Source: Armatimonadota bacterium
Lineage (GTDB): Bacteria > Armatimonadota > HRBIN16
Length of the DNA stretch: 64,000 bases
NCBI GenBank assembly: GCA_963677485.1
Contig: OY781964.1
Coordinates: 2,688,001 to 2,752,000 of the forward strand
Direction: 5' to 3'
Part shown: one piece after another, positions 20,173 to 27,698 of the stretch
Position numbering within the stretch: the stretch's first letter is position 1
Layout: every line of letters starts with the position of its first letter
Notes under the pieces: generated by a model
The model's database searches: none
Told to the model about the DNA's origin: nothing
What the model saw: the letters and a program-made list of their open reading frames with translations, nothing else
Position numbers and translations under genes: made by a program

Positions 20173-22347
20173 TTAGTAACCCTTCAGCAGGGGCTTGATT
20201 TCGTCAGCGATCAACTGTTTGTAGTGCTGAGCCTCGTTCTGCTCGAACTGGCCCCCAAGCTTCTGAACACCATCGGCTGCCCCAAGATAACCCAGCCACA
20301 GCGTGTCACGCTGCAGCCATACGGCCTCGCGTGCCATCATAGTGGGCGTGACCAGCAGACTGAGTATCAGCACGCTGCCCGCCCATAGGCTGGCCAGCCG
20401 CCGGTTGAGGGCACCGAAATACCGGCTGTAAAGTGACATGGCGTACAGCCCAATGATCACGCTGCCTGCCAGCATCACCCATCCCGCGATGAACTGAGCC
20501 ATCGACACGATGTTTGCCATCATGTCGGTGTTTGGGTCATTCGAGAAGATGAGCCAGAAGCCAATCAACACGCAGCCATACCCGATGATTGCGTATTTCA
20601 GCTCAAGGCGTGCATCTGGCGTGCCGATGCCCAGATCCCGGCAGCGTTTGCGTGTTTGCTGCCACTCCAACACCATTGGGGTCAGCAACAGCAGGGCACC
20701 AGGTATGACCCACCAGAAGGAAGCAGACTTAAGCAGGCTGGTCTCTGTGAGCACCACAACAAGAAGGGCGGGAGCCAGCACGAAAGTGAGCAGCCGGATA
20801 CGCATCATCTTCCAGTCCGGCAGCAGGAATAACACCCGTTCACAACGGTAGGCCCCTACCACCATCCAGATGAAGGCCAGTATACTGCTCAAAATTAACA
20901 ACAAGGCGAAGACGGATGTCCACACCATCACGAGGGTTTCACCAGCCAGCTGGCTCTGTACCCGCTTGAGCGGGGTAAGCTGCGCGACACTGACTCCGGG
21001 GTAATATACATCGAGATCCTTGAACTCGAAGGGCAGAATGTCGATGCGCTTAGCATCTGCCTCGGCTTGTTTTTCTGTCGGCTCGAGTTTGACAGATAAC
21101 ACGGTGCGGCCATGCGCACTACTCGCTTGCTGCTTCGCCACTTGTTTTTGAAAGCGGCTGGGATACGCTGGCCTAATAAGCCGATCACTGTCGTTGAGAA
21201 AGCTGTTGCAGGCGTAGTATGATAACGTTTGTCTAGGTCTATAGTTGGAGTTCTCCGATTTCATTACATTTAGCTTCAAGGATTGTTGCACTACCCGCTC
21301 GGCAGTGGCATACTGGCCTTGTTCAGCCAGGTAGCGCACTAAGGTGCCGATGTTTTGATCGTTCATTGACCAAGAACTGTCAATCTGGCGAGCAAAAAAC
21401 CAGCGTGACAGATATTGCTCGTAGTAACGAGGTTGAGGCAGACGCTGCAGCATCCTTAGGTTAAACTCATCGGTGTAGTCGTCAAAGCGAGGCTTCTTTG
21501 AGGCTTCTTCCAGCAGTATCAAACAGCGTTCCAGTCCAGCCAGGCTGCTTATTTTGGTGCCAGGTTCAATTCGAGCAACCAAAGGTAGAAACGCCTTACT
21601 AAATTGCACCTTTAGCATGAGCATAGGGTAGAGTGCGTTGTCTGGGTCCTTCTGCATACCGATCGCAATGAATTTCAGGTAGTCTGCCGGGGTGATGGAG
21701 CCTTGTGCATAATAAGTCGAGTTGCCCCCTGGGGTGTTGGATATTATATTCCGTTTTGGGTTGAATACCACTTCGGAACCCACCAGGAAGTAAGCCAGCA
21801 TTTTGAGGGCTTCAGGCTCATGACTGTGCTTCTGCCAGTACTCTTTGAATCGCTCGGTGCGGAATGCATTCTTGTGGTTCTCTGGTATATCGATCTTACC
21901 GACGGCGTAGAAGTCGGCATGAGGAGGCGCAAACACCGAATAGGCAGGGAGGCGGAACTCGTCGGTCGTGACGGTCTGCGGATCGATCTGTACCTCGCGC
22001 TGGGCCTCTTGAATACCACCCAACCGCAGAAAACCTAAAGCCAGGCCTGCCAGCAGCATCACCGGCACCAGCACCCAACTGATCATGATGCGGGCCAGGC
22101 TGCGCAGAGTCATCCTGCGGCTGTTGGCGGTCAGTAGTTGGTCAGCCAGCTCTGCGGGTGGTCCAAACTGCGCCACGGTCTGCTCTTGGGCTTCCTCCGG
22201 GGACAGCTTCAGTTCAGAGCTTAGCTCCGCGGCACTCTCCTCCAGGTGGCTCATCAGCTCCTGACGCACATCCAAAAGCAGCTCATGGTCAGCTTTCAAG
22301 CCTTCGGTGGCTTGGTCAACCAGCTTCTGGAAGGGGCTTGTATCCAT
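20173..22347 (-). CDS. Multi-TM membrane protein with N-terminal permease-prefix-like domain and large extracytoplasmic domain (copy 1)
   Basis: N-terminal VRQELMSHLEE...AQFGPPAELA; TPR-like DPDNALY; C-terminal TM helices; directly downstream of PadR. Confidence 0.75.
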   Translation of the reverse strand: MDTSPFQKLVDQATEGLKADHELLLDVRQELMSHLEESAAELSSELKLSPEEAQEQTVAQFGPPAELADQLLTANSRRMTLRSLARIMISWVLVPVMLLAGLALGFLRLGGIQEAQREVQIDPQTVTTDEFRLPAYSVFAPPHADFYAVGKIDIPENHKNAFRTERFKEYWQKHSHEPEALKMLAYFLVGSEVVFNPKRNIISNTPGGNSTYYAQGSITPADYLKFIAIGMQKDPDNALYPMLMLKVQFSKAFLPLVARIEPGTKISSLAGLERCLILLEEASKKPRFDDYTDEFNLRMLQRLPQPRYYEQYLSRWFFARQIDSSWSMNDQNIGTLVRYLAEQGQYATAERVVQQSLKLNVMKSENSNYRPRQTLSYYACNSFLNDSDRLIRPAYPSRFQKQVAKQQASSAHGRTVLSVKLEPTEKQAEADAKRIDILPFEFKDLDVYYPGVSVAQLTPLKRVQSQLAGETLVMVWTSVFALLLILSSILAFIWMVVGAYRCERVLFLLPDWKMMRIRLLTFVLAPALLVVVLTETSLLKSASFWWVIPGALLLLTPMVLEWQQTRKRCRDLGIGTPDARLELKYAIIGYGCVLIGFWLIFSNDPNTDMMANIVSMAQFIAGWVMLAGSVIIGLYAMSLYSRYFGALNRRLASLWAGSVLILSLLVTPTMMAREAVWLQRDTLWLGYLGAADGVQKLGGQFEQNEAQHYKQLIADEIKPLLKGY

Positions 22348-22687: not shown

Positions 22688-22812
22688 TTGGTCGCCTCCG
22701 AATACTTTGATGTTCTAAGTATACTATGCATAGATATAGAAAGTATAGTGGCGAATGAAAATCTGGTATATTTGCTGGCTGGGTGGAGCGACATAGGGCG
22801 AACGGCGGTCAC

Positions 22813-23286
22813 CCTTCCCCTCACCATCCGCGTCATCCGTGGTTCAGACAAATAACCGCGGATGAACGCCGATGAACGCAGATGGGAACCGGAACTGCCT
22901 CACGCGAAGACGCGAAGGCGTGAAGTGAACACCGTTGCCTGAACGGCCCCTACCGGGGCGGAGATGGCCTGCACCATCGATCCGACGGATGGTCTGGCGT
23001 AGGGGCGGGGTCACCCCGCCCCAGGGTGCGGAAATCGTGCCCCTACACATCGTCCGGCGGTAGGGGAGAACGGCGTTTCCTTCCCCTCACCATCCGCGTC
23101 ATCCGTGGTTCAGACAAATAACCGCGGATGAACGCCGATGAACGCAGATGGGAACCGGAACTGCCTCACGCGAAGACGCGAAGGCGTGAAGTGAACACCG
23201 TTGCCTGAATGGCCATGACCGGATCGGTGATGGCCAGCACCATCGATCCGACGGATGGGACGAATCGGACAGATGGTCTGGCGTAG
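22813..23286. repeat. Tandem ~266-bp composite repeat; second unit interrupted by IS110
   Basis: 22813-22943 is identical to 23079-23209; the second unit resumes at 25099. Confidence 0.9.
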
Positions 23287-23557
23287 ATACTGTGGCTTTT
23301 GTCAAGTCCCCAGGGGCAAATCTGGGGATTTGGACCTGAATATCAGACACTGGCTCTAGACCACGTAGAATAACGTTAATGTGATGTTTGTGGCATATAG
23401 ACCAAACCTGGATCCGCGACAGAAACAGGCTCAGATGGCATCAGTTGGTCCGTAGCACCTCACATGACGCTCGGAGTCGCGAACGGACGTGCGACATCTT
23501 CGTGGCTTCGAAAGATATCGTTATGCTTCGATGCGTGCTATCGGCAGACTGCCGCAG

Positions 23558-24850
23558 CTAGGATACTGGTGTCAGAACCCTCGGTTTGTTGCCCACCCGA
23601 CTGCGCGATGGCCGGTTTCGGGATGCGGGCCGACCACCGCCGGCAGGAGTGGGCTCATTGGTGGGATTTCCATCCACGCATCCCCGTCTTGGAACGCTCA
23701 CGTCCAGCCCAGGATCATTGCCTACACCGGCTATATCATGGGCCGCTCCGGCACGATCCTGGACATGTCCGTTCGCGTCGGTCAGCGGTTGCTGGTTGGC
23801 CGCATTTGAAGCTTGTTCGATGCCGAAGTTTGGATCATATGGCTGACGGCTGATTAATACCGACCACATGAGCACCAGCTGCTTGCGCATGATTGCGCAC
23901 CGGACAACTCGCTTGGACTTCGGTTTCTTATTGGGATTCTTTACCAAATTCGGATGCTGCAGTTCCTTCACGAAGTCGTGCATGCTCTGGCCAAGCTTTT
24001 TCGACTTACCGTTGACCATCTTCACCACAGTGCTCGATCCACAGTAGAGTAATGTCCGCATATATCGGTCACCCATCTTGGATATGGAGCCGTCGTATGT
24101 CTTGCAGCTTCCTGACCGTTGCGGGCAGGGGTTCATTCCGAAATAGCGCGCGACCGCTTTCGATGTTTCAAATCGTTTAGCATCACCGATTTTCGCAAGG
24201 AAATAGCTTGCTGTGACGTCGCCGATACCCGGAATGCTCTTCAGCAGAGCCATATCTTCGGTCATCTGCGGTGAACTCATCACAAGCTCTTTGATCTGAA
24301 CATCAAGCTTTTTGATGCCCATGTCATGAAAAGCGATCATCTCGTCCAGCACTGTGCTCCGCGTAAGCCGACAGCTTTGGCGCTGGGCGATCGCCTGTCT
24401 GTGTTGCACCAGCATACGGCGGTCATTGGTGTAACCAATAAGCGCATCATAGCATGCTAGACGAGGGACATAGAGTGAGACATTGTGACTTTTCACATAG
24501 TCAGCGATTAGCACGCTGTCAGAGCAGTCCGTCTTTTGTTCCCAGCCTTTGGCTTTGCGGTGATAGAGAACCCGTTTTGGCTCCAGTTGGACAGCATCGT
24601 GCTGGTGCTCGTAGAGGTAATCAAGCAGCGGTCGGCTGTAAGGCCCGGTGGCTTCAGCCGCATACAAGGCGGGAGTTCGGGTAAGCTTCTTCACCCATGA
24701 CAACAACTCCTTGTATCCGGCCTTGTTGTTCTTGAACTCCTTATGGTCTATCGGCTTGTGCGATGAACCTAATACAGACGCGTCAAACGTCAATTTCGAG
24801 ATGTCGATCCCGACATAATGGATGTAGATTTTGTCTTCAACTTCGTGCAT
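23558..24850 (-). CDS. IS110 family transposase/bridge recombinase
   Basis: GIDISK, AEATG, KTDCSD (DEDD), SIPGIG and QRSGS (catalytic Ser) motifs; GGAG RBS before ATG at 24850. Confidence 0.95.
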   Translation of the reverse strand: MHEVEDKIYIHYVGIDISKLTFDASVLGSSHKPIDHKEFKNNKAGYKELLSWVKKLTRTPALYAAEATGPYSRPLLDYLYEHQHDAVQLEPKRVLYHRKAKGWEQKTDCSDSVLIADYVKSHNVSLYVPRLACYDALIGYTNDRRMLVQHRQAIAQRQSCRLTRSTVLDEMIAFHDMGIKKLDVQIKELVMSSPQMTEDMALLKSIPGIGDVTASYFLAKIGDAKRFETSKAVARYFGMNPCPQRSGSCKTYDGSISKMGDRYMRTLLYCGSSTVVKMVNGKSKKLGQSMHDFVKELQHPNLVKNPNKKPKSKRVVRCAIMRKQLVLMWSVLISRQPYDPNFGIEQASNAANQQPLTDANGHVQDRAGAAHDIAGVGNDPGLDVSVPRRGCVDGNPTNEPTPAGGGRPASRNRPSRSRVGNKPRVLTPVS

Positions 24851-24884
24851 GTGGTAATCTCCAGTTGGTAGTGATTGATGGTGC

Positions 24885-25082
24885 AATCAACCAAATCAGC
24901 CTAGCGAACACGGGGTTTTCTCCCAAGATACTGTTCGATATGGGTTGATTGGGAGAAGGATGCCTATCTACGTCACGGTGTTTTCCACCAGGGGCGGTTC
25001 CGGCATCCAATCCTTCTCCTTCACCCCCAGCTAAGGGGTGAGATTAGCTCCCCGACTGCTTTTGGTGTCCGGGGAGCTCACC
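24885..25082 (-). ncRNA. Predicted IS110 bridge RNA
   Basis: 5' hairpins, then a target-binding loop (GGATGCC..ACCGCCCCT-GGTG/CACC-..CGTAG..GGCATCC) and a donor-binding loop (AATCAACC..ACAGTATCT-GGG/CCC-..GCTAG..GGTTGATT); guides match the observed target and donor. Confidence 0.88.
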
Positions 25083-25189
25083 ATATATAGCGTACTAGGG
25101 GCGGGGTCACCCCGAATCAGGGCGCGGAGACCGCGCCCCACACATCGTCCTGCGGGGCGCGGTCTCCGCGCCCTGGGTGATGAAGCCCT

Positions 25190-27358
25190 TTACGGGTTGA
25201 TGGAACCCGTCGCCGATGGGTCGCCTGTCAGCTTACCCATGCTGTCATGGATAAGTTGATTGGTGTGCTGGGTAAGGTTCTGCTGGAACCGCCCCTCCAA
25301 CTGTTTCACTCCACCCGGTGCGCCAAGATGCCCCAGCATGAGGGTGTCGCGTTGAAGCCATGTGGCCTCACGTGAAAGCATCCAGGGAGTAATCAGCAGG
25401 CTGAGTATCAACACACTGCCTGCCCATAGACTGGCCAGACGGCGGTTGAGCGCGCTGTAGTACCGGACGTAAAGCGACATGCCGTACAGCCCGCCCATCA
25501 CTCCGCCAATCATCAAACTCCATCCGATCACGAACCTCACCAGCGCCATGCTAGAACCGATGGCCTCATAATCCTGGTTGATGGAGCGGTACAGCACGTA
25601 GCCTATCACAATACTGCCAACACAGATGATCTTTGCGATCAGCTCACGAACGGCCTTTGGAGTCGCGATACCCAACTCATGGCACCGTCTGCGGGTTAGC
25701 GTCCACTCGTAAAGGGCGGGGATTCCGATCAGCAGCACGGCCGGGATGGCCCACATGACAGAGGCCTGTTTGATCCAGCCAAACTCCGCCATCACGGCGA
25801 CAAGGGCTCCCGGTATGAATACGCCGAATATCAGCGTGTTCCGAAGCCGGATCCAGTCTGGCAGCAGGATCAACACCCGTTGACCACGGAAGAGACCGAC
25901 GATGCTCCATATGATCGCCAGCAGTGTGCTCAGCACGAGCAGCAGCGCAAAGGCGGTCTGCCAGATCATGATCAGTGTCTCCGAAGCCAGCACACTCTGA
26001 AGCTTTTGCAGTGGTTTCAATTGGTCGAGGTTCAGTCCCCGGAAGTAGGCTGGATTGCGAATAATGGAAGCCGGAATGATATCCACTTTTTTGGCAGTTT
26101 CCTGCACAAGCCGTTCCGTTGGGTTCAACCCATCAGCGCGGTCGGTGGAGGCACCCGCTTTCGATTTCAAGATCTGGTCTATCTGCTGCGAGTAGCTGGT
26201 TGGTTTGATCTTGTTGACATAGTTGGTGTAGCCTTTCAGCAGTCCGATGCTGGTCGAATAGATCACGCTCTTGCGTTTTTCGATATTGGAACTGTCGGCC
26301 AGCAGCAGGTTGATTTTCATCGCTTGCTGAGTCAGCCGCTCGCAACCAGCCGCATCTCCTTTAGTTTGGAGATATTGCAGCACGCGCCAGGTGTAGCTGT
26401 CGAGACTTGATGCTGTCGTATTGATCTGGTCCACAACGGCCTCACGTGAGAGATACTGCTCGTAATATCTGGGTTTCGGCAGACGTTGGAGCATCTTGAT
26501 CCGAAATTCGTCGGTGTAGTCGCTGTAGCGAGGTTTGGACGCCGCAAGAGCCATCATTTTGAGGCCTGCATCCAGATCGGGCTGGCTGGAAAACTCGTAA
26601 CTTTGGATCAAACCAGCCTTTGGCTTAAACGCCTTCTGCAGGTAGACCTGCGCCATCAAGACTGGGTAGAGCGCGTTATCGGGATCTTTCTCCATGCCGA
26701 TGTTGACGAACTTGAGGTAGTCTGCCGGTGCGAGGCTCTCGTTGTCTTGAGGCGCCGCGGGGCCAGGTGTCGGCTCAAACGCCACGTGTGAGCCGACCAG
26801 GAAATAAGCCAGCATATGCAATGCGTCCGGATCATTCTGATGCTGCTGCCAGTATGTCTTGAACCGGTCTGTCTGATATCTAAATCGCTGGTTCTCCGGT
26901 GCGTCGATATTCAGCACCGTTTGCAAGTCTTTTGCTGGAGGAGCAAATACGGAGTAAGCAGGTAGAATCAAACCAGGTTCGATCGGCGCGGAGCGTATCT
27001 TGGCATCATTTTGCATCACGCGGATCGCGCCAAGCCGCGACACCCCCAAAGCCAGCCCAGCCAATAACATGACGGGTATCAGCAGCCAGCAGATCAGTAT
27101 TCGTGCGACGTGACGCCTGGACATCCGGTGCCTGTTGGCCTCAAATAACTGATCGGCCACCTCTACGGGTGAGCCGAAATGTGCTTCGGCCTGTGTCACG
27201 ACCTCGTCGGGAGTGACCGCCGGGTCAGCAGCCAACTCTCCAGCGCTCTCTTCGAGGTGACCGAGTAGCTCTTGCTGCACATCAAGCAGCAACTCATGGT
27301 CGCCTTTAAGTCCTTCAGTGGCCTGGTCCACCAGCTTCTGGAAGGGGTTGTTGCTCAT
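25190..27358 (-). CDS. Multi-TM membrane protein with permease-prefix-like domain (copy 2)
   Basis: Paralog of 20173-22347 (PFQKLVDQATEGLK.DHELLLDV; ALNRRLASLWAGSVLILSLL). Confidence 0.75.
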   Translation of the reverse strand: MSNNPFQKLVDQATEGLKGDHELLLDVQQELLGHLEESAGELAADPAVTPDEVVTQAEAHFGSPVEVADQLFEANRHRMSRRHVARILICWLLIPVMLLAGLALGVSRLGAIRVMQNDAKIRSAPIEPGLILPAYSVFAPPAKDLQTVLNIDAPENQRFRYQTDRFKTYWQQHQNDPDALHMLAYFLVGSHVAFEPTPGPAAPQDNESLAPADYLKFVNIGMEKDPDNALYPVLMAQVYLQKAFKPKAGLIQSYEFSSQPDLDAGLKMMALAASKPRYSDYTDEFRIKMLQRLPKPRYYEQYLSREAVVDQINTTASSLDSYTWRVLQYLQTKGDAAGCERLTQQAMKINLLLADSSNIEKRKSVIYSTSIGLLKGYTNYVNKIKPTSYSQQIDQILKSKAGASTDRADGLNPTERLVQETAKKVDIIPASIIRNPAYFRGLNLDQLKPLQKLQSVLASETLIMIWQTAFALLLVLSTLLAIIWSIVGLFRGQRVLILLPDWIRLRNTLIFGVFIPGALVAVMAEFGWIKQASVMWAIPAVLLIGIPALYEWTLTRRRCHELGIATPKAVRELIAKIICVGSIVIGYVLYRSINQDYEAIGSSMALVRFVIGWSLMIGGVMGGLYGMSLYVRYYSALNRRLASLWAGSVLILSLLITPWMLSREATWLQRDTLMLGHLGAPGGVKQLEGRFQQNLTQHTNQLIHDSMGKLTGDPSATGSINP

Positions 27359-27359
27359 T

Positions 27360-27698
27360 CTATGCCCCCTGTAACAGCATGACTGCATTCACGTTGGCGG
27401 AGTAGCTCTTCCAATCCTTCAGGCGGGTTTGAAGGCTCTCAAGTCCTGCTGTCGTGATACTGTAGTATCGTCGCGGTCTGTTATATCCGGGCACTTCCAC
27501 CCATTCACATTGGAGTTGACCGCAGGACGCCAGCTTGTGTAAAACCGGATAGAGGCTTCCCTCTTTCCACTTGAACTCACCATCGGTCCGTTCATTCACG
27601 AGCTTGATGATTTGATAGCCATACATCTTTTCTTCCGATAGCATCTTGAGCACCATCATCTCGATGGCACTCGCGAGATAGTCAGCATGGTTAGCCAT
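27360..27698 (-). CDS. PadR family transcriptional regulator (copy 2)
   Basis: Nearly identical protein to 22349-22687. Confidence 0.92.
   Translation of the reverse strand: MANHADYLASAIEMMVLKMLSEEKMYGYQIIKLVNERTDGEFKWKEGSLYPVLHKLASCGQLQCEWVEVPGYNRPRRYYSITTAGLESLQTRLKDWKSYSANVNAVMLLQGA

What the first reader, a model, noticed from the sequence alone, without database searches (positions are those of the whole stretch)
24885..25082. IS110 bridge RNA with all four guides readable, programmed against this genome's REP-like repeat
Seen (minus strand): target CCCGCCC-CT-ACGCC from the empty site and donor ACAGTAT-CT-AGTAC from joining the element ends. The upstream non-coding region folds into two internal loops. 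Loop 1 (24958-25008) holds ACCGCCCCT (24990-24998; 8/9 match to left target+core) and CGTAG (24968-24972; complement of CTACG). Loop 2 holds ACAGTATCT (24926-24934; 9/9 match to left donor+core) and GCTAG (24901-24905; pairs CTAG plus a G-T wobble). Known: this is the IS621 bridge-RNA layout, and from memory the IS621 donor ACAGTATCTTGTAT is almost the same. Inference: a divergent, naturally retargeted RNA-guided recombinase with two 5' hairpins. The mechanism class is described; this ortholog and its target probably are not.
Basis: partly seen in the sequence, partly recalled or inferred. Interest (0 to 1): 0.88.

Follow-up and report, generated by a model that had tools for sequence, protein, structure and literature searches.

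The report
Bridge RNA of an IS110 element
This is a mobile element of a known type, and its own small RNA spells out both the genome site it jumps into and its own ends; it is a clear new example, not a new mechanism.

Summary
Confirmed. Window 23285-25098 (minus strand) is an 1812-bp IS110-family element present 12 times in this genome. They lie in two stem/internal-loop modules upstream of a DEDD/Ser recombinase gene that resembles IS621 (PDB 8wt6, E 2.5e-28).

Evidence that the RNA guides recombination:
- After in-silico excision, 6 of 9 perfect 11-nt target sites are occupied, against 4 of 191 one-mismatch, 1 of 1550 two-mismatch and 1 of 12,888 three-mismatch sites.
- Sister elements share nearly the same scaffold but carry different left-target guides, and each matches its own flank in 8-9 of 9 positions.
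- The right-donor guide shows the IS621 discontiguous 9-nt/7-bp scheme, with two compensatory changes.
- 6 of 27 stem pairs covary.

One refinement. The guide fits a 20-bp palindrome family best (41 loci, 10 occupied). The window copy sits at a one-mismatch site in a different REP-like repeat.

Transcription, circle formation and activity were not shown. A TTGACA-17-TAYGCT promoter would form only across the joined ends.

Verdict: a new member of a known kind, of moderate-to-low interest. Its clade-specific features are a roughly 90-aa C-terminal tail, extra 5' structure and no linker between the two modules.

The parts
23285..25098 (-). Whole IS110-family element including the CT core at both ends (1812 bp plus one core)
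   Evidence: 12 copies in G000: 10 of 1812 bp and 2 of 1796 bp. Identity stops at these positions. A 1820-nt contig has 11-13 times the depth of the flanks in runs X1 and X3.
25099..25105 (-). Left target of the window copy (7 nt before the core); 1 mismatch to the left-target guide
25097..25098 (-). Left CT core
   Evidence: CT lies at both junctions in 12 of 12 copies.
25089..25094 (-). Candidate -10 hexamer (TACGCT), 17 bp from the TTGACA in the right end once the ends are joined
   Evidence: same position and spacing in all 5 elements tested (scores 9-10 of 12). The integrated window copy has no site of 7 of 12 or better, and the scan found no minus-strand promoter-like site. This is an inference, with no RNA data.
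25046..25078 (-). 5' hairpin 1
   Evidence: Fold; 4 pairs with compensatory changes.
25021..25041 (-). 5' hairpin 2 (this element's own fold only)
   Evidence: Present. Not recovered in the consensus fold.
24952..25019 (-). Target-binding module: outer stem, internal loop, capping hairpin
   Evidence: Helices 1-3 are 100% paired, with 4 compensatory pairs.
24990..24998 (-). Left target guide (9 nt including core), same sense as the target top strand
   Evidence: Matches 9 of 9 in 6 of 12 copies and 8 of 9 in the window copy.
24968..24972 (-). Right target guide (GUAG plus a fifth position C), complementary to CT-AC(G)
   Evidence: The right flank starts CTAC in 11 of 12 copies and CTACG in 4 of 12. 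CTACG is also found in B, C, L050 and L051.
24966..24967 (-). Handshake dinucleotide of the target loop (AU); can pair with donor positions 7 and 6 (T, A)
   Evidence: Read. The scheme is from the Hiraizumi 2024 passages. Inference.
24884..24951 (-). Donor-binding module
   Evidence: Helices 4 and 5. The single-sequence fold uses an alternative register for the outer stem.
24926..24934 (-). Left donor guide, identical to the last 9 nt of the right end including the core
24901..24909 (-). Right donor guide: 9 nt that pair discontiguously with 7 nt of the left end (2 pairs, 2 unpaired, G-T wobble, 4 pairs)
   Evidence: Sequence. The same scheme is described for IS621 nucleotides 157-165.
24899..24900 (-). 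Handshake dinucleotide of the donor loop (GC); the G can pair with target position 7 (C)
   Evidence: Inference.
23558..24850 (-). Recombinase gene, 430 aa (stop included)
   Evidence: Pfam DEDD_Tnp_IS110 (1.8e-21) and Transposase_20 (4.4e-22). IS621 8wt6 at E 2.5e-28, with D16, E66, D108, D111 and S246 aligned to IS621 D11, E60, D102, D105 and S241.
23285..23557 (-). Right end, with TTGACA at 23305-23300, left donor at 23293-23287 and core CT at 23286-23285
23280..23284 (-). Right target of the window copy (ACGCC)

Best explanation
This is a recently active IS110-group insertion sequence. Its left end encodes a bridge RNA of about 200 nt (roughly 25082 to 24884, minus strand).

How it most likely works. 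Steps 1-3 are inferred by analogy with IS621; step 4 is shown here.
1. The element leaves as a circle, joining right end to left end at the CT core. That junction builds a sigma-70-type promoter: TTGACA in the right end, TACGCT 17 bp away in the left end.
2. The promoter drives the RNA and, on the same transcript, the recombinase.
3. In the RNA, the first internal loop reads the target. Its 5' strand pairs with the bottom strand left of the core, and its 3' strand pairs with the top strand right of the core. The second loop reads the joined ends in the same way. A DEDD/Ser recombinase tetramer then exchanges strands at CT.
4. The preferred target is the 3' arm plus CTAC of a 20-bp GC-rich palindrome repeated 41 times. 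The element has filled most perfect sites. It has also landed at a few one- to three-mismatch sites, and the window copy is one of these.
For: Shown here:
- Copies: 12 copies with at most 2 substitutions each, and none of the differences falls in the RNA region. Ten have an intact 430-aa frame.
- Occupancy by mismatches to the 11-nt target: 6 of 9, 4 of 191, 1 of 1550 and 1 of 12,888 sites.
- Guide versus own flank, 9-nt identity: 8, 9, 9, 8, 8, 9 on the diagonal against 4-8 off the diagonal. This covers six rows: elements A, B, C, L050 and L051, plus L052, whose guide and flank are identical to C's.
- Element C in genome G003: 6 of 9 copies match 9 of 9 and 3 of 9 match 8 of 9.
- The right-target guide matches CTACG in A, B, C, L050 and L051.
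- Right-donor guide: compensatory changes at donor positions 10 and 14 between element A and the B/C type.
- Stems: 99.3% of cells paired and 6 of 27 pairs compensatory. Slid controls give 36-48% paired and 0-1 compensatory pairs.
- A covariance model of the two modules finds matches directly upstream of recombinase genes only 22-24% identical, in 3 of 32 metagenome loci (E 5e-8, 4.5e-7, 1.3e-3).
- The catalytic residues are conserved.
- The junction promoter lies at the same place in 5 of 5 elements.

The pairing rules are taken from Durrant 2024 and Hiraizumi 2024 (passages).
Against: - No RNA 5' or 3' end, no expression level and no circle junction was observed. All sequencing runs on offer were assembled contigs, and one search lists no joint from right end to left end.
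- The only RNA-library signal is contigs of an about 95% identical relative in two biofilm metatranscriptomes of one study. DNA carry-over could explain that.
- Rfam 15 holds no matching family, so family membership rests on my own model.
- One copy sits at a 3-mismatch site and one has AT rather than AC after the core, so the guides are not the whole story.
- The occupancy test uses a guide that was recognised with knowledge of the flanks.
- The sister-element sample is small (5 distinct scaffolds, effective number 1.24), and L028/L030 in G003 look like one duplicated insertion.
- The single-sequence fold does not give the outer donor stem in the comparative register.
Confidence: 0.9

Rival explanations
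1. The element and its RNA are real but no longer active. The guide-target matches would then record past transposition only.
For: No circle junction or empty-site joint appears in the contig data. Two of 12 copies carry a 16-bp deletion that splits the gene.
Against: Ten copies are identical or differ by 1-2 bases over 1814 bp, with intact frames and catalytic residues. The same 16-bp deletion occurs at two loci with different flanks, which suggests mobilisation in trans after the deletion arose. Contigs drop rare variants, so a missing joint carries no weight.
Confidence: 0.06
2. The leader is mainly a 5' UTR or a set of protein-binding subterminal repeats. Its matches to the ends and the target would then be DNA-level recognition sites for the recombinase, not RNA guides.
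For: The left donor guide is a direct copy of the right-end tip, as a subterminal repeat would be. The RNA has not been observed.
Against: The left-target guide copies the host flank, not the element, and changes with the flank in otherwise near-identical scaffolds. The right guides are complementary rather than identical, and lie on the opposite side of a capped internal loop, as RNA-DNA pairing on both strands requires. The stems show compensatory changes. For IS621, with the same layout, the guiding role was shown experimentally (passages).
Confidence: 0.03
3. It belongs to the IS1111 (seekRNA) branch, whose guide RNA lies downstream of the recombinase gene.
For: It is in the same protein superfamily and also targets palindromic repeats.
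Against: Both guide modules lie upstream of the gene in the left end. I found no guide-like module in the 273-bp right end beyond the left donor and TTGACA, although that end was not folded separately.
Confidence: 0.01

Closest known systems
IS621 of E. coli and its 177-nt bridge RNA (Durrant 2024, PMC11208160; Hiraizumi 2024, PMC11208158; passages read)
   Same: - RNA in the left end, upstream of a DEDD/Ser recombinase.
- Two pseudo-symmetric stem/internal-loop/hairpin modules.
- A 9-nt left-target guide and a 4-nt right-target guide (extendable), both including a CT core.
- An identical left donor, ACAGTAT-CT.
- A right-donor guide of 9 nt pairing with 7 nt, with two unpaired bases and a G-T wobble at donor position 12.
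- A first handshake position that pairs in both loops.
- The -35 box of the promoter in the right end.
- A palindromic-repeat target.
   Different: - The protein is recognisably related only over residues 10-274 (E 2.5e-28), and is 430 aa against 326-328.
- About 63 nt of structure lie 5' of the first module, against about 33 nt in IS621.
- No linker between the modules, against about 11 nt in IS621.
- The right donor differs at positions 10 and 14, with matching guide changes.
- The position after the left donor guide is U rather than A.
- The target is a different repeat.
- No experimental data.
ISCro4 / IS622 bridge recombinase (PDB 9t56; Perry 2025 preprint, search listing only)
   Same: Second-best structural relative (E 5e-26), with the same domain order.
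   Different: Same differences as for IS621. I did not read that paper beyond its listing.
ISPpu10 and ISPpu9 of Pseudomonas putida (bioRxiv 10.64898/2026.03.19.712850, abstract read; PMC12288879, search listing)
   Same: IS110-family elements that insert next to GC-rich stem-loops or REP sequences present in many copies. For ISPpu10 the target stem-loop is reported as a second specificity determinant. Here every preferred target (elements A, B, C) is the 3' arm of a hairpin followed directly by the core.
   Different: A gating role for the hairpin is not shown here. Six of 7 perfect sites inside perfect palindromes are occupied against 0 of 2 outside. Those two also differ at the position 5' of the 9-nt guide, so the two effects cannot be separated.
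IS1111-type elements with seekRNA (review PMC13604230, search listing only)
   Same: RNA-guided DEDD/Ser recombinase.
   Different: The guide RNA is placed on the other side of the gene (recalled, not read here). This element has the IS110-group placement.

Membership tests
IS110-family DEDD/Ser recombinase | RuvC-like DEDD domain plus Tnp domain | tested here: met
   PF01548 at 1.8e-21 (residues 13-158) and PF02371 at 4.4e-22 (residues 201-285).
IS110-family DEDD/Ser recombinase | Catalytic D, E, D, D and the serine nucleophile | tested here: met
   D16, E66, D108, D111 and S246 align with IS621 D11, E60, D102, D105 and S241. The PDB chain numbering is offset by 2. All are invariant in 8 of 8 clade members.
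IS110-group bridge RNA | Encoded in the left end, upstream of the recombinase gene, on the same strand | tested here: met
   Modules at 25019-24884; start codon at 24850.
IS110-group bridge RNA | Two stem/internal-loop/capping-hairpin modules supported by covariation | tested here: met
   27 pairs, 99.3% paired, 6 compensatory; slid controls 36-48% paired. The sample is only 5 sequences.
IS110-group bridge RNA | First loop: 5' strand equals the target top strand left of and including the core; 3' strand complements the core plus the right target | tested here: met
   Six of 12 copies are perfect over 11 nt.
IS110-group bridge RNA | Second loop: the same relation to the joined element ends | tested here: met
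   Left donor guide 9 of 9. Right donor guide fits the IS621 discontiguous scheme, with compensatory changes against the B/C type.
IS110-group bridge RNA | Guides covary with targets across orthologs | tested here: met
   Matrix; alignment.
IS110-group bridge RNA | Sequence and structure similarity to bridge RNAs of other IS110 elements | tested here: inconclusive
   My own model hits 3 of 32 distant loci directly upstream of their recombinase genes. There is no Rfam family to compare with. The IS621 RNA sequence itself was not available to align.
IS110-group bridge RNA | [quoted passage not shown] | tested here: inconclusive
   A consensus match is conserved in 5 of 5 elements. No transcript data.
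IS110-group bridge RNA | The RNA is made, binds the recombinase and directs recombination | not testable with these tools
   Only contigs were on offer.
IS1111 / seekRNA group | Guide RNA downstream of the recombinase gene | tested here: not met
   Both modules lie upstream of the gene. The definition is recalled.

The most novel reading that the evidence does not exclude
This small clade may add two things to the IS621 scheme. The clade here is the 8 aligned proteins, the only ones above 40% identity in 5.8 billion clusters; all carry a conserved C-terminal tail (about 60-90 aa beyond the canonical fold) that is predicted to be disordered.

1. A target-hairpin gate. Every preferred site is the 3' arm of a GC-rich palindrome, perhaps read by the tail.
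2. An imprecise exit. Two perfect-match palindromes carry the core plus the first 6 nt of the left end but no element. This could be a 3-nt scar left by recombination at a GT pseudo-core inside the left end, and it would make the best sites immune to re-insertion.
Probability: 0.08. Interest if true: 0.55.

Novelty: new member of a known kind. Interest (0 to 1): 0.3.

Why it matters
The finding adds a fully readable natural bridge RNA from a lineage far from IS621; outside the clade, the nearest proteins are about 30% identical or less.

It also offers a built-in natural experiment. Several near-identical scaffolds differ almost only in the seven programmable positions of the left-target guide. 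Each sits at its matching site, and one genome's perfect sites are almost saturated.

This is useful as an orthogonal candidate for bridge-recombinase engineering. It also gives field evidence on mismatch tolerance: the occupied share falls from 6 of 9 perfect sites to about 2% at one mismatch. It does not change the understanding of the mechanism.

Tried and rejected
- Rfam scan of 22800-25500 at E up to 10: no bridge-RNA family. Only sub-threshold radC and microRNA-like hits on the flanking repeats.
- E. coli genomes, distant DNA mode: no match, so IS621 could not be fetched for a direct RNA alignment.
- The search for related loci with the single protein in genome contigs: nothing found.
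- Metagenome scan with the alignment: returned only B/C-type and distant loci, none of the 61-95% identical A-type relatives seen as proteins.
- Read laying: no right-end-to-left-end joint and no empty-site joint at this locus. These are contigs, so this says nothing about absence. RNA-library contigs (X15, X16) cover 24041-25104 but not 23347-24040; I draw no conclusion from that gap.
- Footprint test through the orthologous locus in G003 and G004: the intergenic region is not conserved and lacks the palindrome there, so there was no test.
- C-terminal tail: no Pfam family at E up to 10. The AlphaFold model has pLDDT below 35 for residues 342-430 (only 8 sequences in the alignment), so I did not run a fold search.
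- A long-range helix enclosing both modules, and pairing of the left-end tip with the ribosome-binding region, were predicted for the B/C type. Both are partly broken in this element, so they are not part of the model.
- Supplementary files of Durrant 2024, which list orthologs and targets, could not be seen. This bears on whether this ortholog is already catalogued.
- Searches for prior print: only. I made no search for this specific element or its palindrome.

Full report
**What is there.** On the minus strand of the window lies a 430-aa open frame (23558-24850). It carries both IS110 Pfam domains. A DNA search of the window's own genome (G000, one 5.22-Mb contig) found 12 copies of the surrounding sequence.

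Anchored comparison of the copies and their flanks puts the ends at window 25098 and 23285, with a CT dinucleotide at each junction. Ten copies are 1812 bp. Two are 1796 bp and share one 16-bp deletion that splits the gene. Apart from that deletion, the copies differ from the window copy by at most two substitutions, none in the first 250 nt. In two isolate-type runs, the element assembles as a single 1820-nt contig at 117 and 154 times depth. The unique flank has 10.2 and 11.6 times depth, which fits about 12 copies.

**Check of the observation.** I read positions off the ruler output.
- The window copy's empty site is CCCGCCC-CT-ACGCC.
- The joined ends read ACAGTAT-CT-AGTAC.
- The leader folds better than all 200 shuffles (-90.1 kcal/mol, z -3.66). 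The fold has two 5' hairpins and then a stem/internal-loop/hairpin module at 25019-24952.
- The second module (24951-24884) forms in a slightly different register in the single-sequence fold, because a pentamer is repeated in its 3' strand. The register I use is the one conserved and covarying in relatives (helix 4).

**Do the guides mean anything?** Three independent lines say yes.

*Occupancy.* I cut all 12 copies out in silico. I then listed every genomic match to the 11-nt target implied by the RNA, that is, the 9-nt left guide plus the two further bases read by the 4-nt right guide. The occupied share falls steeply with mismatches:

| Mismatches to the 11-nt target | Sites in the genome | Occupied |
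|---|---|---|
| 0 | 9 | 6 |
| 1 | 191 | 4 |
| 2 | 1,550 | 1 |
| 3 | 12,888 | 1 |

The window copy is one of the four one-mismatch insertions. Ten of the 12 copies sit directly after a 20-bp perfect or near-perfect GC-rich palindrome that occurs at 41 loci. The 10 nt of RNA loop that end in the left guide are identical to the palindrome's 3' arm plus the core. Only one perfect site inside such a palindrome remains empty (G000 3624470). The two other empty perfect 11-mers are not in good hairpins.

*Covariation between guide and flank.*
- The same genome holds a sister element, B (G000 1296590-1298392). Its DNA is about 70% identical over matching stretches and its protein about 45% identical.
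- A congeneric genome, G003, holds 9 copies of a third element, C.
- Two metagenome contigs (L050, L051) carry further B/C-type elements.
- The B/C-type leaders are about 90% identical to each other but differ in the seven non-core positions of the left guide. Each guide matches its own left flank in 8 or 9 of 9 positions. Non-cognate pairs match in 4 to 8 positions.
- In G003, the guide matches 9 of 9 in 6 of 9 copies and 8 of 9 in the other three. Two of the 9 copies look like one duplicated insertion.
- The five-base right guide is complementary to the first five bases of the right flank in A (window copy), B, C, L050 and L051. Within element A's 12 copies, CTAC follows in 11 of 12 and the fifth base matches in 4 of 12.

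*The donor loop.*
- The left donor guide equals the last nine bases of the right end.
- The right donor guide fits the unusual scheme solved for IS621: two pairs, two flipped-out bases, a G-T wobble at donor position 12, then four pairs down to the core (Hiraizumi 2024, section 'DNA recognition mechanism').
- Element A's left end differs from the B/C type and from IS621 at donor positions 10 and 14. The guide carries the matching changes.
- The dinucleotides after each right guide, which are the handshake guides of IS621, can each make the first handshake pair (read).
It is identical to the B/C-type donor.

**Structure and family.**
- On an alignment of the two modules from five distinct elements, 99.3% of cells form standard pairs and 6 of 27 pairs show compensatory changes. 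When the partners are slid, only 36-48% pair and 0-1 pairs are compensatory. The sample is small and the sequences are related, so this is supportive rather than decisive.
- A covariance model built from that alignment finds full-length matches immediately upstream of recombinase genes only 22-24% identical to this one, in 3 of 32 metagenome loci searched.
- Rfam 15 has no corresponding family.
- The protein aligns to the solved IS621 and ISCro4 recombinases (E 2.5e-28 and 5e-26). All five catalytic residues are in place.

**Expression model (inferred).** When the ends are joined, a perfect TTGACA in the right end lies 17 bp from TACGCT in the left end (TATGCT in B, C, L050 and L051). Position and spacing are the same in all five elements. 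The integrated window copy has no comparable site.
- This mirrors the junction promoter reported for IS621 (Durrant 2024 passage).
- For IS621, weak expression from integrated copies and inefficient excision are reported (PMC13626964, abstract). A preprint argues for single-strand, copy-out excision (10.64898/2026.08.31.748434, abstract). Nothing here discriminates between these models.
- Contigs of an about 95% identical relative occur in two RNA libraries of one biofilm study and cover the left end. Contigs cannot show a transcript.

- The RNA is not primarily programmed against the repeat beside the window copy. That flank belongs to a composite REP-like unit whose second hairpin ends in a sequence one base off the guide. 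That 11-mer occurs 45 times and is occupied once. The perfect match is the other palindrome family.
- Only the first of the two 5' hairpins has comparative support.

**Novelty.** The mechanism class, guide-target covariation over thousands of orthologs, and REP or stem-loop targeting are all in print. What is particular here is a small, distant clade.
- Only seven database proteins exceed 40% identity. All of them carry a conserved C-terminal tail; the next relatives are about 30% identical and lack it.
- The tail is predicted to be disordered, from a shallow alignment, and has no Pfam match.
- The clade has extra 5' RNA structure and no linker between the two modules.

I file it as a new member of a known kind. 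I could not check the supplementary ortholog tables of Durrant 2024.

Noticed in passing
G000:C1 2010689-2010716 (+) and 2851067-2851094 region (-); outside the window: Two perfect-match palindromes are followed by the CT core plus the first 6 nt of the element's left end, and then by unrelated sequence, with no element present. The flanks of the two sites are unrelated to each other. This could be a 3-nt scar of an imprecise exit, a truncation, or a repeat variant.
   Followed up: partly
G000:C1 1369196-1370991 and 1871159-1872954; outside the window: Two copies at different sites share the same 16-bp deletion, which splits the recombinase gene, yet keep an intact RNA region. This suggests a defective copy was mobilised in trans.
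   Followed up: partly
G000:C1 1296590-1298392 and 2667671-2672044; outside the window: A sister element B has the IS621-identical donor and a different left-target guide. Its second copy is interrupted by a 2.56-kb IS21-family element, with rve/Mu-transposase and IstB ORFs.
   Followed up: yes
window 23561-23825 (recombinase residues about 342-430): A C-terminal tail is conserved in all 8 clade members, including an invariant Cys and several Gly and Ala positions. It is absent from the approximately 320-330-aa relatives, has no Pfam match, and is predicted disordered.
   Followed up: partly
window 22796-22992 and 23064-23258: A 197-bp direct duplication (93% identity) lies just downstream of the element. 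It contains an approximately 70-nt repeat that gives up to about 30 matches genome-wide. It gives weak sub-threshold Rfam radC-RNA matches of 26.5 and 24.2 bits against a cut-off of 40.
   Followed up: partly
L046 and L026, element positions 2-8 and about 240-246: In B/C-type elements the left-end tip can pair with the ribosome-binding region (7 pairs, invariant there). Two of the 7 pairs are broken in the window element. This could block translation of read-through transcripts that include the tip.
   Followed up: no
window 20173-22347 and 25190-27388 (minus strand): The element lies between two paralogous ORFs of 724 and 732 aa with similar N- and C-terminal sequence (translations). The insertion is intergenic.
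   Followed up: no
G003:C1 5014205-5017696 (L028, L030): Two copies of element C lie about 2.2 kb apart with the same right flank and near-identical left flanks. This is probably a duplication of one insertion rather than two separate events.
   Followed up: no
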